From positions 12,477 through 76,476 of the forward strand of contig JACPKP010000011.1 in assembly GCA_016186955.1 (NCBI GenBank): 64,000 nt of DNA. Direction: 5' to 3'. The DNA is from Candidatus Daviesbacteria bacterium. GTDB lineage: Bacteria > Patescibacteriota > Microgenomatia > Daviesbacterales > UBA10151. Shown in pieces: positions 16,460 through 61,390 of the stretch. The notes beneath the pieces were generated by a model, which saw only the letters and a program-made list of their open reading frames with translations, did no database searches and was not told the origin of the DNA. Position 1 is the first letter of the stretch. Each line of letters starts with the position of its first letter. The translations under genes were made by a program, and so were the position numbers.

Positions 16460-16477
16460 CCTGTTTTTAAAAATGTA

Positions 16478-34443: not shown

Positions 34444-34517
34444 CGATAATCCCATACTTTGAGTATGGGATTTTTGAAGATTGACATTTCCCAAATAAAA
34501 AAGTATATTCCCTAACA

Positions 34518-42973: not shown

Positions 42974-43095
42974 TCTCAAAACTCAAATATCAAATGATAA
43001 ATCTACATCTTAAATTTTAAATCTTCGCAACCTTAAGATTTTAGATTTTAATTGTAGTTTTGACATTTGAGATCTCAGATTTGAGATTTAATATT

Positions 43096-44125: not shown

Positions 44126-44158
44126 ACAGTATATTGACAAACCTTAAATAACCTGCAT

Positions 44159-44587: not shown

Positions 44588-44629
44588 ACTCATTTGCCTA
44601 TTTCACTTATTCTGTAGTAATCTTAAGTT

Positions 44630-45843: not shown

Positions 45844-45883
45844 TTGACAGCTTGTATACTTTGTGTTATAATTTATTAGTTTT

Positions 45884-46441
45884 ATGGCTACTGAAACTTC
45901 ACCTGAAATCAGGCAAACTAAAAGATATTTGCCAAGAGCCGGACGCAGAAATTTTTTGAAGCTTCTTGGAGGAGTATCTTTAGCATCTCTTGTTGCTGCA
46001 TGCGCACCTCAACCTGTAGCACAAATAGCATCTGTGCCTGTTGAATCTAAACCTATAATCAATCCTCCAGCTAAACCCGAAATAAGATTGCAAAACATGG
46101 AAACTCCAGAAAATAGGGCTAAAGAGTGGTTTAATTCAGTATCAACAGGGAATAAAGACCTTTACAAGGCTCAATTTCCTGCAAATGATCCTCCGCTGCC
46201 ACTTCCTGAAGGATTAAGAAATCGTTACACAGAGTGTGATATTAATTCAAACTCAACAAAAATATTGCCTCCTATTAATTTATCTGATGGGACAACTAAG
46301 TTGGTTGTTGATTTTAATAAAAATTGTATTAAAAATGGAGCTGGAGTAGGTGAATATAGATATATTATCTTTAAAATGAAAAAAGATCAAAATGGACATA
46401 TCACTGTTATATCTGCCAATCCTGATATTACTCCAAACTAA
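45884..46441 (+). CDS. Putative Tat-signal lipoprotein
   Basis: RRNFLKLLGGVSLASLVAAC is a twin-arginine motif followed by a lipobox-like LVAAC. Confidence 0.4.
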   Translation: MATETSPEIRQTKRYLPRAGRRNFLKLLGGVSLASLVAACAPQPVAQIASVPVESKPIINPPAKPEIRLQNMETPENRAKEWFNSVSTGNKDLYKAQFPANDPPLPLPEGLRNRYTECDINSNSTKILPPINLSDGTTKLVVDFNKNCIKNGAGVGEYRYIIFKMKKDQNGHITVISANPDITPN

Positions 46442-48444: not shown

Positions 48445-50274
48445 TTACCCTTTCTTTCTTCCTTCACCCTTCCAGACATATTCAGCAAAATTCCTGATTA
48501 GTTTGCCTTTTTCGGTCCATTGGTCGGAATCCAAATGTTCCCACATATCCTTTACTTGAGCCAATGCTTCACTGGTAGGCACTTTTAAAAAGGTGCTCTT
48601 TAATTTATCCCTTAAATCTTCTGCATTCATTAGATTATAGATAGACCATTGGAGCATTGGGGAGATAGGGTCAAACACCCTGAAATCGATTTCCTGCCAA
48701 TCTACATTGCTTAAATCAACCAGTCTTGTATATTTAGGATCAGGAATACCATATTCGTCTACTCTAATATTTCCTGCTTCATCCCTCATATATATTTTGC
48801 CAGACCAATCATATTCATAAATACCCTTCTTTTTATCAAATTTCTTTTGCTCGGGCTTAAAACCATTAAATACTTTTTCTACCCTTTCCAGAGCTGTTTT
48901 ATCTGCTTTTACATTTAATTCTTTATCTTTTTCTGCCTCTTCTTCGGCATCTTCCCTGGTCTTCCCTTTTTCCACAAGCTCTTCTATCTTAGCCTGTTTT
49001 ATCTTGTTGAATTCAATGTCATAGATTTTCTTTGGCAGTTTCGAGGTTAAGAAATCCTGGTTGCCGATATCCACGTCTGCCATAAGCTCAGGGTGAAGAT
49101 GGTAATGGTCTTTATTTTTGATCAACCACCGCTGGAAATTAAACAACCTTCTGGCAAAAAAAACACCGCCTGTGAATTTTCCCTCAATTTTTTTATCCTG
49201 TGCAGACAGCCTGCCTGTAACCATCCAAAACCTTTCCCCAAGCCTACGCGCCCATTCCAACTCTGCATTTTCATTATAATCTGTGTTTTCTTCTTTCTTT
49301 TTTCTAAGTCTTTCAGAAAATTCAGGATCACTTTCCTTTTTTCTCTTAATTATCTTTTCTACTATCTTTTTTTGAAAATCCTCCAGGGTATCTGTTTTTG
49401 AAGCCTGGATATATTCCTGCGCCCGCAGATCATATTCAACGAAAAACTCCATCACCTCCGGAATATGGATCAAGGTGTTTAAGTATTCTGCCCTGAATTG
49501 TTGAACCAGACTGGCAACAGCTTTTACATCCTGAACACTTTCAAACCTCAAAAACATCTCCCTGAATTTTTTTCTGGCCTGCAATTCATTATTTAATCTA
49601 ATTCCTATGTCATAATTTGGATCTTTCTCGTCCGTATGATTCCTCCTATATTCAGGCTCCCTCAACGCTTCTATCATACTGTCAGCACGTCTTACTGCCC
49701 TATCCGCAGCCGGATCTCCGGCTTCAGAAGAAGCCGCTTCAGATAAAGCAAGCGCATCCCTTAGGTATTTGAATTTATTTTCTCTGCTTTCAGGAACATA
49801 AACTTTTCTCTGATACCCTGAATAAGATTCAATATAGGCTATTTCAACCGGATCCTTAAATTGGTGTGGTTTGGGGTTTTCAAGACCCGGCGGATTTGTT
49901 TCTAAATGAAAGTAGTTTTCCGCCTCGCTGCTACCCCTTAGCTCTTTATGTAGTTTTTCTAAACGGTGCCATGTTTTTTTATCATCTTCCTTAATCTTCA
50001 TAGAAGACAGTGAATTTCTATCTATACCAAATGATTTTAAACCCTCTAATAAATCCTCAAGATAATCTTTTTCTGTATCTGATATCTCTGGTTTTGTTGG
50101 ATCATATCCTATTTTAATATTTTTTGGTTCTTCTAATTGGGCCAATTGCGCACTCAATGCAGCTACCTGTTGTTCAAGGGATATAATTCTTTTATCTTTT
50201 TCTGAATCATTCTCCAGATCCGGGGAAGTTGTTGATGTTTCTAATTCTTCATCCATATATCTTTCTCTGCTCAT
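48445..50274 (-). CDS. Hypothetical large soluble protein (acidic, coiled-coil N-terminus)
   Basis: 609 aa, no TM helix, no recognisable motif. Confidence 0.45.
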   Translation of the reverse strand: MSRERYMDEELETSTTSPDLENDSEKDKRIISLEQQVAALSAQLAQLEEPKNIKIGYDPTKPEISDTEKDYLEDLLEGLKSFGIDRNSLSSMKIKEDDKKTWHRLEKLHKELRGSSEAENYFHLETNPPGLENPKPHQFKDPVEIAYIESYSGYQRKVYVPESRENKFKYLRDALALSEAASSEAGDPAADRAVRRADSMIEALREPEYRRNHTDEKDPNYDIGIRLNNELQARKKFREMFLRFESVQDVKAVASLVQQFRAEYLNTLIHIPEVMEFFVEYDLRAQEYIQASKTDTLEDFQKKIVEKIIKRKKESDPEFSERLRKKKEENTDYNENAELEWARRLGERFWMVTGRLSAQDKKIEGKFTGGVFFARRLFNFQRWLIKNKDHYHLHPELMADVDIGNQDFLTSKLPKKIYDIEFNKIKQAKIEELVEKGKTREDAEEEAEKDKELNVKADKTALERVEKVFNGFKPEQKKFDKKKGIYEYDWSGKIYMRDEAGNIRVDEYGIPDPKYTRLVDLSNVDWQEIDFRVFDPISPMLQWSIYNLMNAEDLRDKLKSTFLKVPTSEALAQVKDMWEHLDSDQWTEKGKLIRNFAEYVWKGEGRKKG

Positions 50275-50369
50275 AATAGTCTCCTTTCTAACTTATAGTG
50301 ATTATACCACAGATCTGAGCATGAGCCGACTTTAGTGTAGCTTTAAAGGAGTAATTTTGTCAAATTATT

Positions 50370-50792
50370 TCAATCCAATCCCAATCTTGTATATCCGTTT
50401 TTGGCAAATATCTCATCAAACCCAAAAATATCCTTTGTCTCAAAATGGTCGGCAAAAGCCATCACTATACAATCTGTGAAACTGGTAGAATTTACTTCCG
50501 TTTTAAACTTTTTAAAAGATGCCTTCCGGATTTGGTCATTTATCTCCTCCATAATAAACAAGTTCGAATCTAAAATCAGGTTACCTGTTGAAATGGCTAA
50601 ATTATGGCCAAATTTTTTCCCGATAACATTCATTGTTTCCGTAAAAATATCACCTGGGGTTATTATAGTGGTGTTGTATTCATCCAGGTGTTCCGCTGTT
50701 TTAACAGCAATTTTATGGTTATTATCTGTTGGAAAGAATAAAGATATTAAAGCACTTGAGTCAGCCACTACAAAAGCCTGCTTACTCCTCAT
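50370..50792 (-). CDS. vapC: PIN-domain toxin (VapC)
   Basis: AFVVADSSALISLFF N-terminal PIN signature; 140 aa. Confidence 0.65.
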   Translation of the reverse strand: MRSKQAFVVADSSALISLFFPTDNNHKIAVKTAEHLDEYNTTIITPGDIFTETMNVIGKKFGHNLAISTGNLILDSNLFIMEEINDQIRKASFKKFKTEVNSTSFTDCIVMAFADHFETKDIFGFDEIFAKNGYTRLGLD

Positions 50793-51030
50793 AAAGGTAT
50801 TTATCTATATTTGCAGACAGGTCTGGTGGACCCTTAATTTTTAATTTTTCCCCTAACTCTGCTAAAGCCAGCAACCCCTTTTTTGTGTTTGGTTTACGGG
50901 GGGATATAATCTTTAATCCTTTAGATAAAGCCTCTCTTATAACCTCCGCCTTTGGTTTATTGTTACTTTGCGCCAAAATCTGGATATCCCTATTGAGTTC
51001 TTGAGTGAGATAAACCTGTGTCCTGATCAT
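50782..51030 (-). CDS. vapB: RHH antitoxin (VapB/CopG-like)
   Basis: TQVYLTQELNRDIQILAQSNNKPKAEVIREAL is RHH-like; overlaps the vapC start. Confidence 0.55.
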   Translation of the reverse strand: MIRTQVYLTQELNRDIQILAQSNNKPKAEVIREALSKGLKIISPRKPNTKKGLLALAELGEKLKIKGPPDLSANIDKYLYEE

Positions 51031-51065
51031 ATATGTCTAATGTATAACATATGTCTGCTGGTTTG

Positions 51066-52073
51066 TCAAAGATATGATGACTTTTTATAAGTTAAGGTGC
51101 CTTTACATTTATAGCAGATGGATGTGCAGCAGTTTTCTACCTGGCAACTTGAACACCAGTTTTTTTTACTCTCGCTTAAAGTGACTGGCGGAAAATAGTA
51201 ATCCATACCAAGCATGGGTTGCATAAACATACCCCCAAAGTCAAAAACCGAGCAATTTGTCCTGATCTCCATGGGAGCAAACATAAACTCCATAGGATTT
51301 GGGCCGAAAAAGGCGCCAAAAAGCAGCCCGGAGTGGTATTTTTTTAAGGATTCCCCGCTCATGCCAACCTTAATCGCTTCCAGATACCTTCCGGCATTGA
51401 CTGAAGATAATCTGTTTGTTTCTTCCTCTATGTAGTTAAAGTTTAACCCTGGCCTTTCTTTGGATAACCCCAAAATCAGGGTTTGCACCTCGGCGTCCTT
51501 GATCTTGCCATTTCTCCCTCCTACAGATGTAATAATCAGGTCAGGTTCAGATTCAGGATCAACAACTTTCTTTGAAGACAATAAGTTCATCAGGACTGCT
51601 GCATCATGGCTGTCTAGCGCACCAGACTGGAACTGCCTGAAACTTACATAACCCTCGTTTACTTTTTCAGCCAAATTTATCTGTGTATCCATATACCCGT
51701 CGCCTTTAGGGGAAACCCAAATAACAGATTCCCCAATCCCGGCGTCAAATATCCTTTGCCGGTAATTTATGGCTGACCGGTATTCAGCGCCCCTTCTGAA
51801 CTCTTTATCAATACCCTCCAAAATATCTTTACCGCTGTACCTGTCTGAAGAATGCACCAACCTTTTTTCACCAAAAACCTCCTCTATAAAATACGCATCG
51901 TTATATGGCTTTAGGGTTTTTGAGGCTTCCCAGGTCTGGGAACGGAAGTTGTCTTTAAAAACATCAAGGGCTATTTTTTCCCCTACCCCAACCCCGTACA
52001 CCCTAAGGGTCTGGTGGTAAAAATTAACGTCTTTGTTGACGTCAAAAGTGTGGCTTACCGGGGAAAATTCCAT
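51066..52073 (-). CDS. Hypothetical protein with C-terminal Cys cluster
   Basis: 335 aa; C-terminus CSSCQVENCCTSICYKCKG; no family recognised. Confidence 0.45.
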   Translation of the reverse strand: MEFSPVSHTFDVNKDVNFYHQTLRVYGVGVGEKIALDVFKDNFRSQTWEASKTLKPYNDAYFIEEVFGEKRLVHSSDRYSGKDILEGIDKEFRRGAEYRSAINYRQRIFDAGIGESVIWVSPKGDGYMDTQINLAEKVNEGYVSFRQFQSGALDSHDAAVLMNLLSSKKVVDPESEPDLIITSVGGRNGKIKDAEVQTLILGLSKERPGLNFNYIEEETNRLSSVNAGRYLEAIKVGMSGESLKKYHSGLLFGAFFGPNPMEFMFAPMEIRTNCSVFDFGGMFMQPMLGMDYYFPPVTLSESKKNWCSSCQVENCCTSICYKCKGTLTYKKSSYL

Positions 52074-52297: not shown

Positions 52298-53377
52298 ATG
52301 GAAGCACATCCTGTCCCGCAAAATATAACCAATTTTGAATTCCACCTGGTTGGGGATATGACCTTAAAACAATTCGGGTATCTGGCTGGAGGTTTGGGGT
52401 TTGCATATATGATCTTTTTCCTTTTTGCCACCTCATTCCCGTTTGTTGCCTGGCCAATTGTCATAATTTCAGTAATCATCGGAATATCGTTTGCTTTTTT
52501 ACCCATCCAGGAACGCCCTCTTGACCATTGGGTTAGCGCTTTTTTTAAAGCTATTTTTAGGCCGACAAAATTTAATTATAAATCTGACATCGTTATAAAA
52601 GAGGACCCTTTTTTTAAAAAAAGGTTAGAATTTTTTCTCTCACAATTATCTGCAACCCCTGTAATTGGGCTTTCATGGGGGGATACACCTACTATAACTC
52701 CGCCTCCCCAACCTAAACCTGTTATAAAACCCGCCGTACAAGAGGTTAAAAAGGAAGCTGTCTCTCCGGCTGAACCTGTCAAACTCCCTGCCCCTGCTGA
52801 CTCTAAACTTCCAACCCAGGAAGACCTGAAAGCAACAGTCGAGCTGGCTGATAAAGCCCAAATAATCCGTAAAAAAATTACAGAAACAGAAGAGCAGTTA
52901 AGCCGGGTAAAAGCAAGGGCGATAGCGCCCGGAGAAGATAAAGAACTATTTGCTAAAGATTTCCAGGTTATTTTAAACAACCTGCAAAAATTAAACAGTG
53001 AAGCCGGCGAAATATCAAAAAAACTGGCAGTGCTTTCCAAAACGCCTATCAAAACACCAGCCATTGCCACCCCGGCAAAAAGCATGCCAACAATCAGTTT
53101 AACTGCTGTCCCTAATATCTTAAACGGGATTGTGACAGACCTTCAGGGAAATTATATAGAGGGTGCAATCCTGGTAGCCCATGACAAACAAAATTTACCT
53201 GTCCGGGCTTTAAAAACCAATAAGCTTGGCCAATTTATTGCCGCCACCCCCCTGCCCAACGGCGACTATGTTGTCACCTGCGAAAAAGATAATTTAATTT
53301 TTGACGTTATAAAAATAGAATTTTCAGGACAGGTGCTGCAACCTGTGATAATTTCAGCTAAAAAAGGAGCGCTCTGA
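52298..53377 (+). CDS. PrgI/VirB3-like two-TM protein fused to coiled coil and carboxypeptidase-regulatory-like beta-sandwich
   Basis: N-terminal GDMTLKQFGYLAGG, two TM helices and IQERPLDHWVSAFFKAIFRPTKFNY resemble the PrgI-family GLTxRQ...G.P.E.W...lrf signature. C-terminal GIVTDLQGNYIEGAIL...LPNGDYVVTCEKDN is CarboxypepD_reg-like. Confidence 0.35.
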   Translation: MEAHPVPQNITNFEFHLVGDMTLKQFGYLAGGLGFAYMIFFLFATSFPFVAWPIVIISVIIGISFAFLPIQERPLDHWVSAFFKAIFRPTKFNYKSDIVIKEDPFFKKRLEFFLSQLSATPVIGLSWGDTPTITPPPQPKPVIKPAVQEVKKEAVSPAEPVKLPAPADSKLPTQEDLKATVELADKAQIIRKKITETEEQLSRVKARAIAPGEDKELFAKDFQVILNNLQKLNSEAGEISKKLAVLSKTPIKTPAIATPAKSMPTISLTAVPNILNGIVTDLQGNYIEGAILVAHDKQNLPVRALKTNKLGQFIAATPLPNGDYVVTCEKDNLIFDVIKIEFSGQVLQPVIISAKKGAL

Positions 53378-54183
53378 TGGATACCACACAAAATTACCTG
53401 CCAATCAAAGATATTTTAAATGATTTAATTATTTTAAAAGACGGTAGTGTTTCTTGTGTGATTAAAACTTCCGCAGTCAACTTCGGTCTGATTTCAGAAA
53501 ATGAGCAGCTGGCGATTATATCCTCCTTTGCAGGACTTTTAAATTCATTGTCTTTTTCTATACAGCTGGTGATACGTTCAAAAAGGCTTGATATATCAAG
53601 CTATCTGAAACTGCTTGATGAATCAAGGAATAAACAAAACAACCCGCTGCTGCGTGATATGATGGGGCGTTACCGTACTTTTATTGAAAGTGTGATCAGG
53701 GAAAATGAGGTTTTAGATAAACAGTTTTATGTGGTGATCTCTGTTTCATACCTGGAGTTGGGGGTTATCAATAATATAGAAAAGCATTTCTCTAAAGCTA
53801 TAACAATACTCCTGCCAAGAAGGGATCATGTAATAAGGCAGCTTGAAAGAATCGGCCTTAAGGCAACTCAACTCAACACAGAAGCTCTAACCAGGCTTTT
53901 TTTTGATATTTTCAACGGGGACGGGCAACAACAACCAGACCGGAAACTTCAGGTTGAACCACTAATCACACAACCACAAACATCAGTACCAAAGGCTGCT
54001 GTGTTACTAAAACCACAAGTACAACCGCAGGCACAAACCCAACCAAAAAATCCACCGCCACAGCCGCAAACCATCAAAACACAATTTTCCCCGCCTGTCA
54101 TAAATGACCAACCAAAACCTGTCACCAGGTCATCCATGCCTTTTGTTGTAGAAGAACTGCCTGATGAATACAGCAGTGTATAA
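53377..54183 (+). CDS. VirB4 N-terminal-domain-like protein (split virB4, part 1)
   Basis: DGSVSCVIKTSAVNFGLISENEQLAIISSFAGLLNSLSFSIQLVI resembles the N-terminal domain of VirB4/TrbE. Overlaps the upstream gene (TGATGG). Ends in a Pro/Gln-rich tail 50 nt before the ATPase ORF, which is in a different frame. Confidence 0.35.
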   Translation: MDTTQNYLPIKDILNDLIILKDGSVSCVIKTSAVNFGLISENEQLAIISSFAGLLNSLSFSIQLVIRSKRLDISSYLKLLDESRNKQNNPLLRDMMGRYRTFIESVIRENEVLDKQFYVVISVSYLELGVINNIEKHFSKAITILLPRRDHVIRQLERIGLKATQLNTEALTRLFFDIFNGDGQQQPDRKLQVEPLITQPQTSVPKAAVLLKPQVQPQAQTQPKNPPPQPQTIKTQFSPPVINDQPKPVTRSSMPFVVEELPDEYSSV

Positions 54184-54232
54184 TAATTTTAAGCTGTTGT
54201 TTTACAATTTACGTTTTTAGTTTTTCGTTATT

Positions 54233-56020
54233 ATGGACATATCTTTTGTCACACCACCTAAGCCAAAAACACCCAAACAGGATTGGCCGCCTGGGGGAAA
54301 AACAGGCGGCAAACTCTCTATTGCTGATGTGCTGGCGCCGGCAGAGGTAGAGGTTGATTTTTCTTTTCTCAGGATCAACAACTCACTTTACAGGTCTTTC
54401 TTTGTTTCAGCTTACCCCCGGTACGCTGAACCAAATTGGCTTGAGCCTTTGATTGATTTTGACCATTCACTGGATATTTCAATGTTTATCTATCCCTCAA
54501 CCTCAAAAACAGTCCTGGATGACTTAAAAAGAAAGATAGCTGAGATGGAAGCCACCATCCAAACGGATATCGAAAGAGGGAGGGCTATAAATCCATCAGT
54601 GCAGGTAGCGCTTGATGATGCCAGGGCATTGCAAGACCAACTCGTAAAAGGGTCTGAAAGGTTTTTTAGGCTGGGGCTTTATATAACAGTGCCTGTGCAA
54701 AAAAAGCCCGCAGCTGATGAAGATTTAAACAATATCTCTGAGCTGGTAGAATCTACACTGGGATCCATCTCTATAACCGCCAAAAAAACCACACTCCAGA
54801 TGGAAGATGCTTTTATCTCCACTATACCTTTGGGTATAGATAGGTTGAACCTAAACCATAATATGGATACCACCTCACTTGCCACCACATTCCCTTTTAC
54901 TACATCGGAACTGACTGCAAATGAAGGGATTATGTACGGAATTAATGAACACAACGGGTCTTTGGTGGTGTTTGACAGGTTTTCCCTGGAAAACTATAAC
55001 TCTGTAGTTTTTGCAAAAGCCGGCGCCGGTAAGTCTTATTTTGTCAAGTTGGAAATTTTAAGATCCCTTATGTTTAATACACAGGTGATTGTAATTGACC
55101 CTGAGCATGAATATATTAAGCTTAGTGAGGCTGTCGGGGGAGAGTATATAAATTTCACATCAGAATCACCTGTTAAAATAAACCCTTTTGACCTCTCTAA
55201 TGTTTTAGAAAGCGGTGAAAATGAACTGGGCAGAAAAATATTAACCTTAACCGGTTTTTTAAAGCTGGTTTTAGGGGAATTAACTTCTTCACAATCCGCT
55301 GTCTTAGATAGGGCGTTATCTAACACTTACCGTCTTAAAGGGATTACCGCTGACCCCCAAACACAAAAACTGGCGCCTCCTTTAATGGAAGATTTGTATA
55401 AAGTTTTAATCGGGATGGAGGACCCTAATGCTAAAGAACTGGCATTCAGGCTGGAAAGGTTTATTAAGGGGTCGTTGGCAGGAATATTTTCTGCACCCTC
55501 AAATATTAACCTTAATAACCAAATGGTGGTTTTTTCAGTCAGGGACCTGGCTGACCAGCTCCGCCCTTTAGCTATGTACTTAATACTTGATTATATCTGG
55601 ACAAAAATCAGGGCAAACCTGCAAAAAAGGCTACTGGTTGTTGATGAAGCCTGGTATATGATGAAAAACCCTGATAGCGCGCAGTTTTTAGTAGAGATGG
55701 CCAAAAGGGCCAGGAAATATTATCTCGGGGTCACCACTATTACCCAGGATGTTGAGGATTTCCTGGCAGAAGACAGGGGTAAAGAAATTATTTCTAATTC
55801 ATCAATACAAACCCTGTTAAAACAAAGTCCTTCTTCAATTGATAAAATAGGACAAGTTTTTAACCTGTCAGAAGGGGAAAAACACCTGCTTTTATCTGCA
55901 GGTGTAGGCCAAGGCCTTTTCTTTGCCGGCCCTTCGCATGTAGCCATCCAGATAGTGGCCTCACCTGAAGAACACCAGCTGATCACCTCCAACCCTGCTG
56001 AACTTATAGCTAAAAACTAA
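54233..56020 (+). CDS. virB4: VirB4/TrbE/PrgJ-family T4SS ATPase (ATPase domains)
   Basis: YRSFFVSAYPRY...WL...ISMFIYP region, Walker A VFAKAGAGKSYFVK, Walker B LLVVDEAWYMM, C motif VTTITQDVEDF. Confidence 0.75.
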   Translation: MDISFVTPPKPKTPKQDWPPGGKTGGKLSIADVLAPAEVEVDFSFLRINNSLYRSFFVSAYPRYAEPNWLEPLIDFDHSLDISMFIYPSTSKTVLDDLKRKIAEMEATIQTDIERGRAINPSVQVALDDARALQDQLVKGSERFFRLGLYITVPVQKKPAADEDLNNISELVESTLGSISITAKKTTLQMEDAFISTIPLGIDRLNLNHNMDTTSLATTFPFTTSELTANEGIMYGINEHNGSLVVFDRFSLENYNSVVFAKAGAGKSYFVKLEILRSLMFNTQVIVIDPEHEYIKLSEAVGGEYINFTSESPVKINPFDLSNVLESGENELGRKILTLTGFLKLVLGELTSSQSAVLDRALSNTYRLKGITADPQTQKLAPPLMEDLYKVLIGMEDPNAKELAFRLERFIKGSLAGIFSAPSNINLNNQMVVFSVRDLADQLRPLAMYLILDYIWTKIRANLQKRLLVVDEAWYMMKNPDSAQFLVEMAKRARKYYLGVTTITQDVEDFLAEDRGKEIISNSSIQTLLKQSPSSIDKIGQVFNLSEGEKHLLLSAGVGQGLFFAGPSHVAIQIVASPEEHQLITSNPAELIAKN

Positions 56021-56025
56021 CTAAA

Positions 56026-57969
56026 ATGGCTGTCCCAAATGAGCAAAACTTAAACCCCGAGCATATCAGCCTCTATAAGGAAGCCCGGAATTTTATATTT
56101 GATTACACCACCCATAACTACAGTTATCAAAAAAGTTTAATTGACCGCCTGATTAAACCCGGAGAAATTTATGTACTCTACCCTATTAAAACTATTGTCT
56201 ATTACCTGGTTAAATTATCCCCTCCGCCTAACCTGCTTTTTGGCGCTAAACCTCCTTTTTCCTATGAAAAGATCCATCCTTTTTTAAGGTATTTTGGGAG
56301 TAAAGATGTATACAACAGGTTAAATGATATTGCCGCCGGTAAATTTAAAGCCTTGCCGGATAAGGAAGAGGTGGAGATAGCAAGTTTTAATAAGCTTCCG
56401 GAGGACCAGAAAGATAAAAAAATAAACCGGGAGATTTCCAAAAAGACAGGAGGTAAAATTTTTGGCTTTGTATCAATTCCTACATTAAAACCACCGCAAC
56501 AATACCCCAAGGTAAATATAAAACCGTTAGCCGTACCCTCTTTTATAAAAAACCTGGGGGTCTGGTCACTTATAAAAGTAAGTAATTTAATAAACAGGCA
56601 CCCTAAAATATCAGTCCCTTTGTCTGTTGGTATGATAGTGGGTTTTATACAATATGTTGTGACAGGCAACCCGGCTGTGGGGTGGATTTCCGGGATACTA
56701 ACTTCTGCCGGGGTTCATATAGCTTCACAATATCTGTCTGCGCCAAGACAGCCCCAGCAGATCGGTGATGAGGATAAACAATACAATAGTGGTGGTTGGA
56801 CTGGTGGTGGGGGTGTGGGTGGGGGCAGTTTCCAGCCGCCATGGCGGTCAAAGACTTCAAGGGCTTTAGGAAGGGGTTTGGGTAAAGCAGGAGCCAGAGC
56901 TGCAGGAGGACTGGCCAAAGCAGCTGTACCGCTTTTGGCAAATCCAATCACCTGGGTGGTAATAGGGATAATATTTTTTATCCTGCTTTTCTTCTTTTTG
57001 ATATTTAATAAAAATACCTCACTGTTTAACCCTGTTGAAGAAGATGCTGTCCCCACAGCTACATCAAGCGCCCAGTTAAAAATCAGTAAAACAGCCCCCG
57101 GAGCTGTCCCAAACGGTTCCCCAATCCCCTATGAAATTACTGTTACATATATAGGTACTGGAACTGCGGATATCACTGTCACGGATAAATTACCCGATAA
57201 CACAGATTTTACCAGTAGTAATCCTGCAGCAACCCCTGATGCCAACAGAATTCTGACATGGAACTTTCCTAAAATCCAGCCAAACCAGCCTCAAAAAGTA
57301 AGTTTTGTGATCCAACCTAATAAAAATGATATTTATGTCCAAAATACCGATTATGGTGCCAAAATAACAGGTGTTACCGGGGGAGGAGGTGGCGAGATAG
57401 CTGCCTGCACCTTCTTCAGGGAAGGAGATACTACTGTAACCGGCGGAGTATCAGGATTAAAATTTAATATACCTGAGTGGCCTGCTTTGATAAATGAAGT
57501 TACTTTAAAAGTCGGTGTCCCTGCTTCTTTCATCGCTGGTTTTCTCAGGGTAGAGTGCCCTGATTGTTTCGCAACTTCAGATCCGAGTTATATCATAAAC
57601 GACTACGATGGGCATTCTTCAGGTGTAGCTTATGGTGCTATGCAATTTACTCCCGGTACTTTTGAAGAGGTTTTTAAAAACCACAAAGACGAACTGAGGG
57701 ATAAATTCGGGAAAACATCATTTACTTTAAATATTGATCCGGGAGACCGAAATAATCCTAATAGTTCGGTGTTTAGAATGTATAGTGTTAAGGATTCTGT
57801 GGTCGCTGCCTCATTTAAAGCCAGAGATGACAGCGGTGGGGTATTTGATGAAGCTGGGGTCAGAAAAGCTGTGAAAGCCTATTATGGCAGCTGTATTTAC
57901 GATCAGGGTGGACAGGAGTGGAATTACTGCAGCGATGTCTGGAATAGTGTTTCCAGCTGCCATCCTTAA
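56026..57969 (+). CDS. Membrane-anchored lytic transglycosylase (SLT domain) with DUF11-like repeat domain, VirB1/PrgK-like
   Basis: TM helices, Gly-rich linker, DUF11-like TAPGAVPNGSPIPYEITVTYIGTGTADITVTDKLPDNTDFT, and SLT motif SGVAYGAMQFTPGTFEE. Confidence 0.5.
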   Translation: MAVPNEQNLNPEHISLYKEARNFIFDYTTHNYSYQKSLIDRLIKPGEIYVLYPIKTIVYYLVKLSPPPNLLFGAKPPFSYEKIHPFLRYFGSKDVYNRLNDIAAGKFKALPDKEEVEIASFNKLPEDQKDKKINREISKKTGGKIFGFVSIPTLKPPQQYPKVNIKPLAVPSFIKNLGVWSLIKVSNLINRHPKISVPLSVGMIVGFIQYVVTGNPAVGWISGILTSAGVHIASQYLSAPRQPQQIGDEDKQYNSGGWTGGGGVGGGSFQPPWRSKTSRALGRGLGKAGARAAGGLAKAAVPLLANPITWVVIGIIFFILLFFFLIFNKNTSLFNPVEEDAVPTATSSAQLKISKTAPGAVPNGSPIPYEITVTYIGTGTADITVTDKLPDNTDFTSSNPAATPDANRILTWNFPKIQPNQPQKVSFVIQPNKNDIYVQNTDYGAKITGVTGGGGGEIAACTFFREGDTTVTGGVSGLKFNIPEWPALINEVTLKVGVPASFIAGFLRVECPDCFATSDPSYIINDYDGHSSGVAYGAMQFTPGTFEEVFKNHKDELRDKFGKTSFTLNIDPGDRNNPNSSVFRMYSVKDSVVAASFKARDDSGGVFDEAGVRKAVKAYYGSCIYDQGGQEWNYCSDVWNSVSSCHP

Positions 57970-57986
57970 TCTGATACAATTTAAAA

Positions 57987-58685
57987 ATGAAAAAATATTC
58001 AATTTACATTTTATCTGTTCTTATATCTCTTACTTTGTTATATGGTAAAAATGCCTTAGTTTTTGCCCAAACTGTGGTCAAAGGCCTACCTGTCACTACT
58101 AAAGTGGGCAACCCAACTGAAGGAGCACCTGGAGGAGGTATATTACCTGGACCTACAGGTTTTGTTTACTATTGCCAGGGTAATACTGCCTGGGCGAGTA
58201 CTTGTAGTTTAGGTGTTGCCGGGTGTGGACCAACCTCAATGGCTATGGTACTGAGTAGTTTTGGGGTGGTAAAAACCCCACCAGAAGTTGACCGGGAGTG
58301 GGGGTTTAGGGTATGCGGAGACGTTGGAAGTAGTATGGAAGATGCACTGGGAAGTAGTTGGCTGGCAAATTTAGGTTTTGATAAGGGCCCTAATATCGGA
58401 CAAGGAAGCTTGAATGAAAACCTTGCTAAAATATTTTTAGAACAAGGAAGTTTAATTATTGGATCATCACATGCTTTCCCGTGCGCAAATTGTAAACCTG
58501 GAACTACAACAGTTGACCATATTTTTGTTGTAGATGGGATAGATGTAGCCGCAGGAACTGTTAGTATCAGGGATCCCAACAACTGTAGTTACGCCGACGG
58601 AAACGATGAAAACCCCGCAAAAGTAATCCACAAAATCAACGAATTTACCTGGGCATATGCATATCCAATAAAAAAAGTGAGATAA
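57987..58685 (+). CDS. Secreted papain-like cysteine peptidase (Peptidase_C39-like/CHAP-like), cell-wall hydrolase
   Basis: Signal peptide. CQGNTAWASTCSLGVAGCGPTSMAMVLSSFG holds the catalytic Cys as in C39-like domains; a downstream His lies in DHIFVVDGID. Confidence 0.45.
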   Translation: MKKYSIYILSVLISLTLLYGKNALVFAQTVVKGLPVTTKVGNPTEGAPGGGILPGPTGFVYYCQGNTAWASTCSLGVAGCGPTSMAMVLSSFGVVKTPPEVDREWGFRVCGDVGSSMEDALGSSWLANLGFDKGPNIGQGSLNENLAKIFLEQGSLIIGSSHAFPCANCKPGTTTVDHIFVVDGIDVAAGTVSIRDPNNCSYADGNDENPAKVIHKINEFTWAYAYPIKKVR

Positions 58686-58692
58686 TAATTTT

Positions 58693-59103
58693 ATGGAATT
58701 TGTCAAAAAAAATATTTTACTTATAATAGTTTTTGGTTTAATTGTTTTAATAATCATTTCTATAGTTGTATTGGGACTGGGCAAAAAAAAACCTTTACCA
58801 TCCGGCAGTCCAATACCTTCAGCTTCGGCAGTAATCCAAAAACCTGAAACAGGAAAAAAATATCAGATTATTACTGGCGCGGACCAAAAACAAATAGATC
58901 AAGATTCTCTTGTAGGAAATCTGCTGACAAAATTACCATATAAGGGAACTAATTTTTCTTTAGATTATTCTTATAATTCCCTCCAATTTATACTTACTTT
59001 AAATACTCAAAATAAAGATCTCGGCAATAAAGAGTTTGACCAGTTTTTACTTCAAAACCAGATACTAGACAGATCATGGCTTAAATATTTAACAATTAAG
59101 TAA
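58693..59103 (+). CDS. Small N-terminally anchored protein (possible VirB8-like component)
   Basis: TM helix plus a soluble domain of about 100 aa. Call from position and topology only. Confidence 0.25.
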   Translation: MEFVKKNILLIIVFGLIVLIIISIVVLGLGKKKPLPSGSPIPSASAVIQKPETGKKYQIITGADQKQIDQDSLVGNLLTKLPYKGTNFSLDYSYNSLQFILTLNTQNKDLGNKEFDQFLLQNQILDRSWLKYLTIK

Positions 59104-59104
59104 T

Positions 59105-59590
59105 ATGAGTCTGAAACAAAAAATTATCGGGATTATTGTGGTTTTAGGGATAGCGTTGATTGCTGTTTTTCAAACTGGGTTGGGTGGAAATTTATCAGGA
59201 AGGATGGATTCCCTCCGCCAGCTGGCGGATCGCGGGAATGACAGTGTGAAGGGTGTGAATAATACCAAAGATCAGGAAATTAAAATAATCTCAACCAACC
59301 CGTCACCACTAGAGGAAACTACAATCCTTCCCATGCAAGCTATTGAAATAACCTTTAACCAGACTCTTGAAAGCGCCCCGGAGTTTAAAACCAGTATGGA
59401 GCCTAAGGCTGATTATAAAACCGAACTATCCGAAGACAGGAAAACCGCAAAAATCATTCCAATTAAACCATACACCCTAGGAGGAGGTTATACACTTCAT
59501 ATTTTAGGCAATACTAAATTTGACGGCAAAAAAGAACTAAACAGGGAAGAAATTTTCCATTTCAAAACCATAAATTACACTGGGGTATAG
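59105..59590 (+). CDS. N-terminally anchored Ig-like (Big_5/SbsA-like) domain protein
   Basis: ISTNPSPLEETTILPMQAIEITFNQTL matches the bacterial Ig-like Big_5 start pattern. Confidence 0.35.
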   Translation: MSLKQKIIGIIVVLGIALIAVFQTGLGGNLSGRMDSLRQLADRGNDSVKGVNNTKDQEIKIISTNPSPLEETTILPMQAIEITFNQTLESAPEFKTSMEPKADYKTELSEDRKTAKIIPIKPYTLGGGYTLHILGNTKFDGKKELNREEIFHFKTINYTGV

Positions 59591-59601: not shown

Positions 59602-60735
59602 TTAGCTTAATCTGATTGGCATTATCACATATTCAAGCCCCTCTTCACCGATAGGTTTAACTAAAGCCGGAGACAGGTTGCCTGAAAATTCAATAGAAAC
59701 CTGTAAACAGGCAAGTACTGAAAGTATGTCAATTAAATACTTACTATTAAAAGCAATGGAAATTTCCGAACCTTCAGTATCAGCCTCAAGTTGGGTTTCC
59801 TGGCCACCCACCTCTTTTGCCTCAGAAGATAAAACAATCTTTTTTTCAAAAGCGCTAATTTTTATTATATTAGCTTCCGACCTGGAAAAAACAGCGGCTA
59901 ATTTACATGCTTTTAGTAACTCAACCCTGTCTATAATTGTCCTGTTTTCAAACTTTTGAGGAACAATCTTTTCCCAAACAGGAAACTGACCCTCTATTAG
60001 GCGTGATGAAAGCTGGGTATCACCTATTTTAAAAACCATCTGGTTTTGGTTTTCCGATGTAGAAATCTCTATATTTTCTTCCCCAGATGAATCTTCACTA
60101 ATCAGCCTGGCAACCTCTTCAAATGTCCTTCTGGGAATAAGTACCCTTAAATTATTTTTTTCCTTCAAGTCAACTTTTGTAGTATCGGGATTAATTTTAG
60201 TGTGTTTATGTGCAAGCCTGAAACCATCTGTTGCCACAAATTCTAAACTATCTTTTTTAATCTCAGTTAAAATTCCTGTTAAGACAGGTCTTCCATCATC
60301 TGATGCAGCAGAAAAAGTGATTAAAGGAAGTGTATTTAAAAGGACTGTGCTGTTTACTAAAATAGGCTTATCGGAAGATATAGGTATAACAGGGAATTCA
60401 CTGGCCGGTATGCAATTTAAGGTAGCGTTAAATTTTTGAGTTGATATCTTAAGTTGCTCTGACTTTGATTCAATCTCTAGGGTTTCCCCTGTAAGTGATG
60501 CAATAATATCCAGGAATGTTTTAGCCGGCACTGTCAATTCTCCTTCTTCATAAACTTCCGTATTTACAGTTTTTATAATACCTACCTCTAAATTTGTGGC
60601 TGATAATTTAAGCCTATTATTTTCAGTCCTAATTAAGATATTAGCCAAAACAGGTAAGGTTGACCTGACCCCGACAGACCTTGATACAGCCTGTAATACC
60701 GGCAGTAAATCCTGCTGTAAAATTTTTATTTTCAT
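59602..60735 (-). CDS. dnaN: DNA polymerase III beta sliding clamp DnaN
   Basis: MKIKILQQDLLPVLQAVSRSVGVRSTLPVLANILI; 377 aa; lies downstream of dnaA. Confidence 0.85.
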   Translation of the reverse strand: MKIKILQQDLLPVLQAVSRSVGVRSTLPVLANILIRTENNRLKLSATNLEVGIIKTVNTEVYEEGELTVPAKTFLDIIASLTGETLEIESKSEQLKISTQKFNATLNCIPASEFPVIPISSDKPILVNSTVLLNTLPLITFSAASDDGRPVLTGILTEIKKDSLEFVATDGFRLAHKHTKINPDTTKVDLKEKNNLRVLIPRRTFEEVARLISEDSSGEENIEISTSENQNQMVFKIGDTQLSSRLIEGQFPVWEKIVPQKFENRTIIDRVELLKACKLAAVFSRSEANIIKISAFEKKIVLSSEAKEVGGQETQLEADTEGSEISIAFNSKYLIDILSVLACLQVSIEFSGNLSPALVKPIGEEGLEYVIMPIRLS

Positions 60736-60746
60736 CTTTGTGTTTT

Positions 60747-61205
60747 TTAATCCCTCCTTTTTATTGAAACAAACTTTTGTATTTCATCTTCTGTTACTTT
60801 AATCAACCTGAAATTTACCAACCCTGCTGTAATCAGATTTTTAATATGTTTTTCTTCCTCGGTTAAAATATGGTTTTGGCCGGATTTAACTTCTATAAAA
60901 TCAATCCGCTCATTGTTTTTAATACCTATAAAATCAATAGGCCACCCTAAGGGGATTATTCTATCATAATCATAACGGAGCTCGGCATAAGTCAAAAGTT
61001 CCGCCATCCTACCTTTTTGGGGATTAATTGAACCTTGTATTGTCTGGAGTATTTTAATAGGTAAATGTTCTATTTGTTTGTAAATATCAATAAAATCCTG
61101 GGGGATTTCAGAAGTTTTCCTTGAATGAAGCCTGCCAATAAGATAGGTTATTACCAAAGTAAGAATAATGATAATAAAAAAAATTAAATCTATTTTTATA
61201 GTCAT
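60747..61205 (-). CDS. Membrane-anchored PD-(D/E)xK nuclease-fold protein (Hjc-like)
   Basis: N-terminal TM helix; GRMAELLTYAEL...GWPIDFIGI...IDFIEVKSGQ gives a D...E-V-K motif with Hjc/VRR-NUC-like spacing. Confidence 0.4.
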   Translation of the reverse strand: MTIKIDLIFFIIIILTLVITYLIGRLHSRKTSEIPQDFIDIYKQIEHLPIKILQTIQGSINPQKGRMAELLTYAELRYDYDRIIPLGWPIDFIGIKNNERIDFIEVKSGQNHILTEEEKHIKNLITAGLVNFRLIKVTEDEIQKFVSIKRRD

Positions 61206-61390
61206 ATTAATTTATCCACATTTTATTAGGTTAACTTTAAATATTTATTATAGTAACCGTAGTTATAGATATTGTCTATATGTTAAAAACAATCTTATTT
61301 GAGCACTAAATTCGTAATATTTTCGTGTTGAAAACTCTTTTAAAAATGTGGATAAGTCAGTGGATAACTGTGTATTTATATGTTGATAAC
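61206..61390. promoter_or_regulatory. oriC-like region with DnaA boxes (dnaA-dnaN intergenic)
   Basis: Perfect TTATCCACA at 61212-61220 and perfect TGTGGATAA at 61347-61355. One-mismatch boxes at 61359-61367 (AGTGGATAA) and 61381-61389 (TGTTGATAA). AT-rich. Confidence 0.65.

What the first reader, a model, noticed from the sequence alone, without database searches (positions are those of the whole stretch)
52298..58685. T4SS-like core (PrgI/VirB3-like, split VirB4, SLT hydrolase, C39-like peptidase) without coupling protein or relaxase in the window
The gene order is a 2-TM PrgI-like protein, a VirB4 N-domain-like ORF, a VirB4 ATPase ORF, a membrane SLT transglycosylase and a secreted papain-like peptidase. 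This mirrors Gram-positive-type T4SS (PrgI-PrgJ-PrgK). The VirB6-like channel protein and pilins lie just upstream. No VirD4-like coupling ATPase, relaxase or oriT-like repeat is visible in 64 kb. The locus sits next to the chromosomal origin, not in an obvious mobile element. That favours a chromosomal pilus, DNA-uptake or host-interaction apparatus over a conjugative one.
Basis: partly seen in the sequence, partly recalled or inferred. Interest (0 to 1): 0.6.

Follow-up and report, generated by a model that had tools for sequence, protein, structure and literature searches.

The report
Chromosomal type IV secretion locus, Patescibacteria

Summary
The five ORFs at 52298-58685 are real. They are a PrgI/VirB3-like 2-TM protein, a TrsD-like protein, a VirB4 ATPase, a membrane-anchored SLT/goose-lysozyme-like hydrolase and a secreted C39-like cysteine peptidase. 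The TrsD-like protein is a free-standing VirB4 N-terminal domain. Upstream lie seven VirB2-like pilin domains and a 7-TM candidate VirB6. Downstream lie dnaN, a DnaA-box cluster (oriC), dnaA and rpmH-rnpA-yidD-yidC.

VirB4 and DnaA are the only canonical Walker-A ORFs of at least 150 aa in the 64 kb. I found no coupling protein (T4CP), relaxase, flanking att repeats or compositional anomaly.

The genome is a Candidatus Daviesbacteria MAG (Microgenomates, CPR). The PrgI-TrsD-VirB4 trio occurs in the same order in 73-75 of 80 related loci. In 51 of 54 loci with enough flank, dnaN/dnaA follow VirB4. VirB4 is better conserved than DnaA (median 60% against 39% identity).

However, Wang et al. 2023 and Quinonero-Coronel et al. 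2025 already describe this system: TrsD, PrgI, pilin arrays, no relaxase, T4CP elsewhere, dnaA proximity, and essentiality in Saccharibacteria. Novelty and interest are low. A T4CP or relaxase elsewhere in this genome could not be checked.

The parts
41174..42973 (+). 599-aa secreted Cys-rich protein ending in a VirB2-like pilin domain (a pilin fusion; a possible minor or tip pilin or adhesin)
   Evidence: Pfam T4SS_pilin PF18895 at aa 524-587, E=7e-6. Hydrophobic helices at 27-45, 523-541 and 571-589. Aligns with the small pilins.
43060..44932 (+). Tandem array of six small VirB2-like pilin paralogues: 43060-43440, 43437-43805, 43805-44125, 44159-44587 and 44630-44932 (the last overlaps the next ORF's predicted start)
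   Evidence: Four ORFs hit Pfam T4SS_pilin at E=3e-12 to 7e-7. The ORF at 44630-44932 aligns with them and shares the SGG(D/E)..A motif and two TM helices. Pairwise identity is 20-33%. Homologous arrays occur in 11 related loci.
44899..46441 (+). Two exported proteins of unknown role: a 314-aa Cys/Pro-rich protein and a 185-aa protein with a TAT-like signal
   Evidence: No Pfam hits. Weak TAT-signal hits only. One N-terminal hydrophobic segment each. No homologues in the 80 loci.
46505..48316 (+). 603-aa polytopic membrane protein, a candidate VirB6-like channel subunit (unproven)
   Evidence: Seven predicted TM helices. Homologues sit at the same position, after the pilin array, in 27 loci. 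Only 1 of 18 homologues gives a weak TrbL/VirB6 hit, E=0.0015. No PDB or plasmid hit. The single-sequence AF2 model is unusable, pLDDT 45.8.
48445..52073 (-). Three opposite-strand genes between the two T4SS blocks: a 609-aa highly charged soluble protein, a PIN-domain protein (50370-50792) and a 335-aa unknown protein. Membership in the system is uncertain.
   Evidence: No Pfam, NCBIfam or PDB hits for the 609- and 335-aa proteins. PIN domain E=1.6e-5. In related loci the same position holds a large, fast-evolving minus-strand protein, and in one subgroup a T4CP-like ATPase as well.
52298..53377 (+). PrgI/VirB3-like 2-TM protein with a long C-terminal extension: Pro-rich linker, helical segment and a CarboxypepD_reg-like beta domain
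   Evidence: Pfam PrgI E=8.6e-9; CarboxypepD_reg E=4.6e-5, below the cutoff. TM helices at 26-44 and 50-68. Present upstream of VirB4 in 73-74 of 80 loci.
53377..54183 (+). TrsD-like protein, a free-standing VirB4 N-terminal domain (aa 1-183), followed by a disordered P/Q-rich tail and a conserved acidic C-terminal motif FVVEELPDEY
   Evidence: NCBIfam hits to VirB4 models (N-terminal positions only) and to TrsD. TraC_F_IV hit in 22 of 33 homologues. AF2 model and Foldseek search return TrwK/VirB4. Invariant E259, E260 and L261. Present in 75 of 80 loci directly upstream of VirB4.
54233..56020 (+). VirB4-family ATPase covering the rest of the N-domain and the P-loop motor domain
   Evidence: Pfam TraG P-loop E=2e-28. 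NCBIfam CD1110 family, 375 bits, above the cutoff. PDB 4ag5 E=2e-49. Walker A and B motifs intact. 100% identical to an NCBI Candidatus Daviesbacteria protein.
56026..57969 (+). Membrane-anchored wall hydrolase (functional VirB1/PrgK analogue): N-terminal region, 2 TM helices, Gly-rich linker, DUF11 Ig-like domain, and a C-terminal SLT/goose-lysozyme-like domain (aa about 435-647; E510, G537, Q540)
   Evidence: The positional counterparts in 34 loci carry alternative hydrolase domains: M23 in 11, CHAP in 3, C39_2 in 1, NAGPA in 2.
57987..58685 (+). Secreted papain-like cysteine peptidase (Peptidase_C39_2; Cys80, His178), a likely peptidoglycan stem-peptide or cross-link peptidase
   Evidence: Pfam E=7.4e-7, above the cutoff. 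Signal-like N-terminus. Motifs located. The same gene call appears on independent contigs. Not conserved in the 80 related loci.
58693..59590 (+). Two small single-pass membrane proteins (136 aa and 161 aa). The second has a weak Ig-like (Big_5) hit and is conserved in Daviesbacteria loci just before dnaN. Possible accessory subunits.
   Evidence: Homologues of the 161-aa protein occur in 7 loci.
59602..62758 (-). Context: dnaN (59602-60735), a Holliday-resolvase-like gene (60747-61205), a DnaA-box cluster that is the probable oriC (61206-61390), and dnaA (61391-62758)
   Evidence: Pfam. Two perfect and two 1-mismatch DnaA boxes at 61212-61389. rpmH-rnpA-yidD-yidC follow dnaA. The cumulative GC-skew minimum lies here.

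Best explanation
The locus is a typical member of the Patescibacteria-clade type IV secretion system. This is a vertically inherited, chromosomal derivative of the monoderm (MPF_FATA-type) conjugation machine. It has lost its linkage to a relaxase and has gained VirB2-like pilins.

Proposed mechanism:
- The 2-TM PrgI/VirB3-like protein tethers a VirB4 motor to the membrane (inferred from the R388 structure). Here the motor is built from two polypeptides: the TrsD-like N-domain and the 595-aa ATPase.
- The motor works with a polytopic channel protein, for which the 603-aa protein is the candidate. Together they extract the pilin paralogues from the membrane and polymerise them into a surface filament (inferred from what is known of VirB4 in pilus biogenesis).
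- The membrane-anchored SLT-like hydrolase and the secreted C39-like peptidase open peptidoglycan so the structure can cross the wall. They may also attack the wall of a host cell (inferred).
- The apparatus serves the host-dependent (epibiotic) lifestyle rather than conjugation. The substrate (protein, DNA or other macromolecule; export or import) is unknown.

Shown here: gene identities, the split VirB4, conservation, synteny with oriC, and absence of T4CP and relaxase in 64 kb. Inferred: assembly, pilus formation, hydrolase targets and biological role.
For: Identity of the parts.

Taxonomy: the VirB4 ORF is 100% identical to a Candidatus Daviesbacteria protein, and every labelled close homologue is CPR.

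Vertical inheritance and constraint:
- At least 591 stretches in the species-representative genome collection encode a relative.
- PrgI-like, TrsD-like and VirB4 genes occur in the same order and on the same strand in 73-75 of 80 loci.
- dnaN/dnaA lie downstream of VirB4 in 51 of 54 loci with at least 9 kb of flank, and dnaA lies within 10 kb in 53 of 54.
- Across the same loci, median identity is 59.7% for VirB4, 39.2% for DnaA and 33.2% for DnaN.

Not a mobile element:
- No T4CP or relaxase Pfam hits in the main (non-nested) ORFs of at least 100 aa.
- VirB4 and DnaA are the only ORFs of at least 150 aa with a canonical Walker A motif.
- No flanking direct repeats.
- GC 0.417 against 0.407 for housekeeping genes, and codon-usage r=0.90.
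- Housekeeping genes lie on both sides.

Literature: PMC12102498 reports the same architecture phylum-wide (TrsD, PrgI, pilin arrays, no relaxase, T4CP mostly distant, dnaA/dnaN proximity in Microgenomatia and Paceibacteria). PMC10633639 shows that the homologous cluster and its pilin genes (SEML1_0006-0019) are essential for epibiotic growth of Southlakia epibionticum; as relayed by PMC12102498, the peptidase and lysozyme homologues just downstream of virB4 are essential too. It also reports that no coupling or relaxase proteins were recognisable in that cluster.
Against: - No functional data exist for any Microgenomates member, and no host is known for this MAG.
- VirB6 and VirB8 equivalents are not demonstrated.
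- The SLT assignment for the window copy rests on family-level evidence only.
- The remaining roughly 40 kb of the source contig and the rest of the genome could not be inspected. A distant T4CP or relaxase is therefore not excluded, and T4CP homologues are common in the phylum.
- A sublineage of relatives carries a T4CP-like gene inside the cluster, so a DNA- or substrate-coupling function may be ancestral.
Confidence: 0.8

Rival explanations
1. It is the mating-pore module of a conjugative element (ICE or chromosomal transfer system). The coupling protein, relaxase and oriT would lie elsewhere in the genome and act in trans.
For: All core genes derive from conjugation machinery. VirD4-like homologues are reported in most Patescibacteria genomes, usually far from virB4. 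Seven related loci carry a T4CP-like ATPase next to the PrgI-like gene: DUF87, TrwB_AAD_bind E=4.8e-7 and TraG-D_C. The rest of this genome was not visible.
Against: - Conserved synteny with dnaN/dnaA across a whole class and native composition argue against a mobile element.
- There is no integrase and no att repeat at the cluster boundaries. The only recombinase lies 30 kb away, in its own 8-kb element bounded by repeats.
- Relaxases were found in only 103 of 3,035 Patescibacteria genomes.
Confidence: 0.06
2. It is a DNA (or nucleotide-source) import machine. It would be a domesticated T4SS working in reverse, like the Helicobacter pylori ComB system or the archaeal Ced/Ted systems, feeding an organism that cannot make nucleotides.
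For: T4SS-derived importers work without a relaxase, as I recall for ComB and Ced/Ted (not checked here). VirB4 shows a weak similarity to CedB (E=9e-12). A ComFC-like gene is in the window. The authors of PMC12102498 favour import of DNA or other macromolecules as a hypothesis.
Against: - The CedB score of 44 bits is far below that model's 700-bit cutoff, while the CD1110 conjugative model is passed.
- In Southlakia, deleting comEC abolishes competence but not viability, while the T4SS is essential. T4SS essentiality is therefore not explained by ComEC-dependent DNA uptake.
- There is no direct evidence for the direction of transport or for the substrate.
Confidence: 0.13
3. It is a decaying remnant of an old conjugative element, with VirB4 broken in two by a frameshift and no function.
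For: VirB4 is encoded by two ORFs. Several neighbouring genes have no recognisable homologues.
Against: - The two-gene arrangement is conserved in 75 of 80 loci, with intact reading frames.
- About 595 aa is the normal length in more than 100 homologues at 72-86% identity.
- The Walker motifs are intact.
- VirB4 is better conserved than DnaA.
- TrsD-type splitting is also known in the pGO1-type systems.
Confidence: 0.01

Closest known systems
Patescibacteria-clade T4SS (Southlakia epibionticum SEML1_0006-0019, Wang et al. 2023; phylum-wide survey, Quinonero-Coronel et al. 2025)
   Same: - VirB4 with MPF_FATA affinity.
- An adjacent TrsD homologue and a PrgI/VirB3-like gene.
- A tandem array of divergent VirB2-like pilins.
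- Peptidase and lysozyme-type genes right after virB4.
- No relaxase and no nearby T4CP.
- Chromosomal position beside dnaA/dnaN.
   Different: There is no difference in kind. Details specific to this instance:
- The hydrolase pair is SLT-like plus C39-like, whereas relatives use M23, CHAP and other domains.
- One pilin is fused to a 480-aa Cys-rich domain.
- No recognisable VirB6 or VirB8, which the survey also notes for Microgenomatia.
- There is no experimental system.
MPF_FATA conjugative T4SSs of Gram-positive plasmids and ICEs (pGO1 Trs, pIP501 Tra, pCF10 Prg, CTn2 CD1110 family)
   Same: - Gene order VirB3-like (TrsC/PrgI), TrsD, VirB4 (TrsE), wall hydrolase.
- VirB4 passes the curated CD1110-family cutoff.
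- A monoderm-type system with no outer-membrane core genes.
   Different: - No relaxase, T4CP or oriT nearby.
- It has VirB2-like pilins, which Gram-positive systems lack.
- It is chromosomal, vertically inherited and origin-linked.
- The hydrolase activities are spread over two proteins, instead of one SLT+CHAP protein.
T4SSs that work without a coupling protein or relaxase (Bordetella Ptl, Brucella VirB, Helicobacter ComB, archaeal Ced/Ted DNA importers)
   Same: A VirB4-driven envelope machine that is uncoupled from conjugative DNA processing and has been domesticated for a cellular function.
   Different: These are diderm or archaeal architectures. The similarity to CedB is only 44 bits. 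The substrates of those systems are known; the substrate of this one is not.

Membership tests
Patescibacteria-clade T4SS (PMC12102498) | VirB4 ATPase related to the MPF_FATA class | tested here: met
   NCBIfam CD1110 family, 375 bits against a cutoff of 325. PDB 4ag5 (Thermoanaerobacter VirB4), E=2e-49.
Patescibacteria-clade T4SS (PMC12102498) | VirB4 falls inside the monophyletic Patescibacteria clade | tested here: inconclusive
   No tree was built. The 120 best homologues (72-100% identity) and the 80 best genomic loci are, where credibly labelled, all CPR/Microgenomates. This is consistent but is not a phylogeny.
Patescibacteria-clade T4SS (PMC12102498) | TrsD homologue (a VirB4 N-domain-like protein) associated with virB4 | tested here: met
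   It is adjacent to virB4 in 75 of 80 loci.
Patescibacteria-clade T4SS (PMC12102498) | PrgI/VirB3 homologue | tested here: met
   Pfam PrgI E=8.6e-9. Present in 73-74 of 80 loci.
Patescibacteria-clade T4SS (PMC12102498) | Array of VirB2-like pilin genes near virB4 | tested here: met
   Seven pilin domains at 41174-44932.
Patescibacteria-clade T4SS (PMC12102498) | Chromosomal location near dnaA/dnaN, with no relaxase nearby | tested here: met
   dnaN starts 0.9 kb after the C39-like gene. The DnaA-box cluster is at 61206-61390. No relaxase hit in 64 kb.
Patescibacteria-clade T4SS (PMC12102498) | VirB6 homologue | tested here: inconclusive
   A 7-TM candidate at a conserved position, but with only a marginal TrbL/VirB6 signal in 1 of 18 homologues. 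The survey also finds VirB6 scarce in Microgenomatia.
Conjugative T4SS / ICE | Relaxase (any MOB family) associated with the T4SS | tested here: not met
   None among the main (non-nested) ORFs of at least 100 aa in the window. The rest of the genome is not testable with these tools.
Conjugative T4SS / ICE | Type IV coupling protein (VirD4 or TcpA family) | tested here: not met
   No T4SS-DNA_transf, TrwB_AAD_bind, TraG-D_C or FtsK hits. VirB4 and DnaA are the only ORFs of at least 150 aa in the window with a canonical Walker A motif. A jackhmmer search seeded with a relative's T4CP finds nothing in the window.
Conjugative T4SS / ICE | Integrase and att repeats bounding the element; atypical composition | tested here: not met
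   No flanking repeats in 36-64 kb. GC and codon usage resemble the housekeeping genes. The serine recombinase at 20023-21609 belongs to a separate 8-kb element.
Conjugative T4SS / ICE | oriT | not testable with these tools
   There is no general oriT model. No notable repeats were seen near the cluster.
pGO1/pIP501-type MPF_FATA subclass | VirB1-like hydrolase with SLT plus CHAP domains downstream of VirB4 | tested here: inconclusive
   An SLT-like domain supported at family level plus a separate papain-fold C39_2 peptidase. This is an analogous pair of activities, but not the same domain or the same single protein.
pGO1/pIP501-type MPF_FATA subclass | No VirB2-type pilins (adhesin-based mating) | tested here: not met
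   Seven VirB2-like pilin domains are present.
Archaeal Ced DNA importer | CedB-type ATPase | tested here: not met
   CedB model score 44 bits against a cutoff of 700.

The most novel reading that the evidence does not exclude
In Microgenomates the origin-linked T4SS may be an indispensable host-piercing organelle that works with no coupling protein at all. Three observations fit this reading. Its VirB4 motor is under stronger constraint than DnaA. The protein slot right after virB4 is a cassette in which peptidoglycan-hydrolase domains (SLT, M23, CHAP, C39, NAGPA) are exchanged between lineages, possibly to match the wall chemistry of each lineage's host. The divergent pilin paralogues, the pilin-adhesin fusion, and the large fast-evolving opposite-strand protein in the cluster could likewise be host-specificity determinants or cargo. 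The published surveys hint at parts of this but do not show it.
Probability: 0.25. Interest if true: 0.55.

Novelty: already known. Interest (0 to 1): 0.25.

Why it matters
Patescibacteria make up a large share of bacterial diversity, live as obligate epibionts, and are poorly understood. Their T4SS is one of the few machines shown to be essential for growth on a host (Saccharibacteria, Tn-seq). Its substrate and direction of transport remain open.

This window adds a clean, complete Daviesbacteria example. My comparison of 80 Microgenomates loci supports three points:
- The PrgI-TrsD-VirB4 core is almost always intact and origin-linked.
- PrgI/VirB3 is associated with virB4 far more often in this class than HMM-based surveys reported (22.6%).
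- The wall-hydrolase module is swapped between lineages.

These are refinements to a known system, not a discovery.

Tried and rejected
- Viewing beyond the window. Exact-sequence look-ups for DnaA, the first ORF and VirB4 failed. Look-ups that worked returned only 2-5.5 kb Logan contigs. They showed rpmH-rnpA-yidD-yidC to the right of dnaA but nothing further.
- VirB6 test. A profile of 18 homologues against the PDB gave nothing. Pfam gave one marginal TrbL hit. tblastn against 72,556 plasmids gave no match.
- Homologue search for the 647-aa protein. The word-based search returned only 2 hits. The exhaustive search with the C-terminal domain was needed.
- SLT family HMM against the ORFs of the 80 loci: no hits. 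The exact hydrolase domain is therefore not conserved among the relatives.
- A perfect DnaA box at 52236-52244 in the promoter region of the PrgI-like gene suggested DnaA control. It is absent from the equivalent region of all 73 related loci, so it was rejected as probable chance.
- att-like direct repeats around the cluster: only short, imperfect chance matches.
- PDB searches for the 609-aa and 335-aa opposite-strand proteins: nothing.

Full report
**Observation.**
The window is about 39% GC. Independent gene calls on short public contigs give the same boundaries for the last two and for the genes that follow.

**What the five genes are.**
- ORF1 (359 aa) matches Pfam PrgI above its cutoff (E=8.6e-9, aa 5-91) and has two hydrophobic helices at 26-44 and 50-68. 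A long extension follows, ending in a weak CarboxypepD_reg-like beta domain.
- ORF3 (595 aa) is a VirB4.
  - Pfam TraG P-loop, AAA_10 and DUF87.
  - PDB 4ag5 (Thermoanaerobacter VirB4 C-terminal domain), E=2e-49.
  - NCBIfam 'VirB4-like conjugal transfer ATPase, CD1110 family', 375 bits, above the curated 325-bit cutoff.
  - Walker A (AGAGKS, 263-268) and Walker B (VVDEAW, 469-474) are intact.
- ORF2 (268 aa) has no Pfam hit on its own.
  - NCBIfam aligns its residues 3-184 to positions 1-171 of the same CD1110 model, whose positions 184-734 are covered by ORF3. It also matches the TrsD/TraD family (E=5.8e-8).
  - 22 of 33 homologues hit Pfam TraC_F_IV, the N-terminal region of the F-plasmid VirB4.
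  - An AlphaFold model is folded over residues 1-183 (pLDDT 78.6). Its 13 best PDB matches are all TrwK/VirB4 chains of the R388 system.
- 'Split VirB4' is therefore an accurate description, but it is not damage. About 590-600 aa is the standard length of this VirB4 in more than 100 homologues at 72-86% identity. The separate N-domain gene lies directly upstream in 75 of 80 related loci.
- ORF4 (647 aa) has two TM helices, a Gly-rich linker and a DUF11 Ig-like domain.
  - Its C-terminal roughly 200 residues gave no SLT hit by themselves.
  - An exhaustive search found a family of 81 cluster representatives. In it, 22 of 29 members hit Pfam SLT and 12 hit SLT_2.
  - The family profile hits goose-type lysozyme (E=0.002) and lytic transglycosylases across the catalytic-Glu helix and the G-x-M-Q motif.
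  - E510, G537 and Q540 are invariant.
- ORF5 (232 aa) is a signal-bearing Peptidase_C39_2 (E=7.4e-7), with the Cys80 and His178 motifs.

**Surroundings.**
Upstream (41174-44932) are six small VirB2-like pilin paralogues and a 599-aa Cys-rich secreted protein ending in a seventh pilin domain. They are 20-33% identical to one another.

Two exported proteins of unknown role follow. Next is a 603-aa protein with seven predicted TM helices that holds the position expected for VirB6. I could not demonstrate the homology.

Three opposite-strand genes separate this block from ORF1: a 609-aa charged protein, a PIN protein and a 335-aa unknown.

Downstream, in order:
- two small single-pass membrane proteins;
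- dnaN;
- a resolvase-like gene;
- a 185-bp spacer with two perfect and two one-mismatch DnaA boxes;
- dnaA;
- rpmH-rnpA-yidD-yidC.

The cumulative GC skew has its minimum here. The locus therefore abuts oriC.

**No transfer functions in the window.**
- Pfam scans of the main (non-nested) ORFs of at least 100 aa found no VirD4/TraG/TcpA-type coupling protein, no relaxase and no VirB11.
- VirB4 and DnaA are the only ORFs of at least 150 aa with a canonical Walker A motif.
- The rest of the window is housekeeping: rpoD, dnaG, tRNAs, tmRNA, smpB, a ComFC-like gene and a SpoIID-like gene.
- No att-like repeats flank the cluster.
- GC (0.417) and codon usage (r=0.90) match the housekeeping genes.
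- The one mobile element in the window is a separate 8-kb insertion at tRNA-Asn. It is bounded by a 19-nt exact repeat and carries a serine recombinase. It lies 30 kb away and has lower GC.

**Relatives.**
The VirB4 is 100% identical to a protein of a Candidatus Daviesbacteria MAG, in the Patescibacteria/Microgenomates group. A scan of species-representative genomes found at least 591 stretches that encode a relative. The 80 best loci are Microgenomates: Daviesbacteria, Curtissbacteria, Gottesmanbacteria, Woesebacteria, Pacebacteria, Shapirobacteria, Levybacteria, Amesbacteria and Beckwithbacteria. Some are mislabelled co-assembly bins.

In these loci:
- The PrgI-like, TrsD-like and VirB4 genes occur in the same order in 73-75 of 80.
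- dnaN/dnaA follow VirB4 in 51 of 54 loci with at least 9 kb of downstream flank, and dnaA is within 10 kb in 53 of 54.
- 96 of 99 perfect DnaA boxes lie beside dnaA/dnaN.
- Median identity to the window protein is 59.7% for VirB4, against 39.2% for DnaA and 33.2% for DnaN.

This is the signature of an old, vertically inherited and strongly constrained chromosomal system.

The variable parts are informative. The gene right after virB4 is nearly always a large membrane protein. Its enzymatic domain differs between lineages: Peptidase_M23 in 11 of 34, CHAP in 3, C39_2 in 1 and NAGPA in 2. The SLT-like domain of this window is not found in any of the 80 loci.

A large, fast-evolving opposite-strand protein always follows the candidate VirB6. 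In seven loci, one of them partial at a contig end, a roughly 730-aa T4CP-like ATPase is encoded divergently next to the PrgI-like gene. It hits DUF87, TrwB_AAD_bind and TraG-D_C. It has no counterpart in this window or in the Daviesbacteria loci.

**Mechanism (inferred).**
I reason by analogy with the R388 structure and with monoderm systems:
- The VirB3-like protein anchors a VirB4 motor assembled from the TrsD-like and ATPase polypeptides.
- With a polytopic channel protein, the motor extracts pilins from the membrane and builds a filament.
- The SLT-like and C39-like enzymes open peptidoglycan, either the cell's own or possibly the host's.
- Without a nearby relaxase or T4CP, conjugation is unlikely.

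The substrate is unknown. My confidence in the identity is about 0.8. My confidence in the specific role is lower.

**Comparison with the literature.**
This is a known system.
- Wang et al. 2023 (PMC10633639) found that the homologous cluster of Southlakia epibionticum (SEML1_0006-0019) and its pilin genes are essential for epibiotic growth. They noted that it resembles Gram-positive conjugative T4SSs and lacks recognisable coupling and relaxase proteins.
- Quinonero-Coronel et al. 2025 (PMC12102498) surveyed 3,035 Patescibacteria genomes. They report:
  - a monophyletic VirB4 clade nested in MPF_FATA;
  - TrsD (remotely homologous to the VirB4 N-terminus) as the commonest partner;
  - PrgI/VirB3 homologues;
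  - arrays of 2-11 divergent VirB2-like pilins, especially in Microgenomatia and Saccharimonadia;
  - relaxases in only 103 genomes;
  - VirD4-like genes in 2,918 genomes, but rarely near virB4;
  - scarce VirB6 in Microgenomatia;
  - dnaA/dnaN proximity in Paceibacteria and Microgenomatia;
  - essentiality, in Southlakia, of the peptidase and lysozyme homologues just downstream of virB4, citing Wang et al..
- A 2025 review repeats these points. It adds that comEC is dispensable for viability in Southlakia, so T4SS essentiality is not explained by ComEC-dependent DNA uptake.

**Verdict.**
The finding re-derives published knowledge from a single window, so novelty is 'already known' and interest is low (0.25).

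My survey adds small increments:
- near-universal PrgI-TrsD-VirB4 linkage in Microgenomates, where the published survey reported only 22.6% VirB3-virB4 association in that class;
- non-overlapping tiling of one VirB4 model by the two ORFs;
- a candidate for the 'missing' VirB6;
- exchange of hydrolase domains at a fixed slot;
- an in-cluster T4CP in one sublineage.

**Limits.**
I could not inspect the rest of this genome for a T4CP or relaxase. I built no phylogeny. VirB6 and VirB8 equivalents remain unproven.

Noticed in passing
window 13612-21642: An approximately 8-kb integrated element at tRNA-Asn. A 19-nt exact direct repeat (TTGGCTCCTCGGCCAAGAT) occurs at 13612-13630 and at 21567-21585; the second copy is the 3' end of tRNA-Asn (21568-21642, minus strand). 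Inside are a large serine recombinase (20023-21609), an Ltp-type lipoprotein (19309-19992) and several ORFs with no hits. GC is 0.362 against 0.407 for housekeeping genes. It is unrelated to the T4SS, which lies 30 kb away.
   Followed up: partly
window 11431-11525 and 13525-13619: A segment of about 95 nt is duplicated 2,094 bp apart (two 37-nt blocks, 97-100% identical). The second copy abuts the left att repeat of the element above. The interval holds a Fic-domain gene (12041-12910). It may be an older tandem insertion at the same site.
   Followed up: no
window 52236-52244: A perfect DnaA box (TTATCCACA) lies 54 bp upstream of the PrgI-like gene's start. It is the only perfect box in the window outside the oriC spacer. 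No equivalent box occurs within 300 bp upstream in 73 related loci, so it is probably chance.
   Followed up: yes
window 53377-54183 (aa 256-265): The TrsD-like protein ends in a conserved acidic motif, FVVEELPDEY (E259, E260 and L261 invariant in 33 homologues). The motif follows an approximately 70-aa disordered Pro/Gln-rich linker. It could be a docking peptide for VirB4 or another partner.
   Followed up: no
L021, L024-L027, L031, L036 (for example L025:5569-7758, minus strand): In one Microgenomates subgroup (seven loci, one partial at a contig end) a roughly 730-aa T4CP-like ATPase is encoded divergently, immediately upstream of the PrgI-like gene. It hits DUF87, TrwB_AAD_bind (E=4.8e-7) and TraG-D_C. 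It is absent from this window and from the Daviesbacteria loci.
   Followed up: partly
window 48445-50274 (minus strand) and the equivalent position in 26 related loci: A large (570-1365 aa), fast-evolving opposite-strand protein always follows the candidate VirB6 gene. The representatives tested had no Pfam hits. In this window it is a 609-aa highly charged soluble protein with no homologues in the 80 loci. Its role (cargo, regulator or structural) is unknown.
   Followed up: partly
80 related loci (L001-L080): The gene slot directly after virB4 holds a large membrane protein whose peptidoglycan-hydrolase domain differs between lineages: M23, CHAP, C39_2, NAGPA, and SLT-like here. In Pacebacteria-like loci the slot is empty and dnaA follows virB4 within about 100 bp, in the opposite orientation.
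   Followed up: partly
80 related loci: VirB4 is more conserved than the replication proteins encoded next to it. Median identity to the window protein is 59.7% for VirB4, 39.2% for DnaA and 33.2% for DnaN.
   Followed up: partly
record titles (for example L002, L007, L025): Many public MAGs that carry this Microgenomates-type locus are labelled 'uncultured Gammaproteobacteria' or 'Pseudomonadales' (binchicken and co-assembly bins). These labels are almost certainly taxonomic mislabelling.
   Followed up: no
window 34077-34444 and 35319-35762: tmRNA (Rfam, 102.6 bits) and smpB lie close together. ARAGORN did not report the tmRNA.
   Followed up: no
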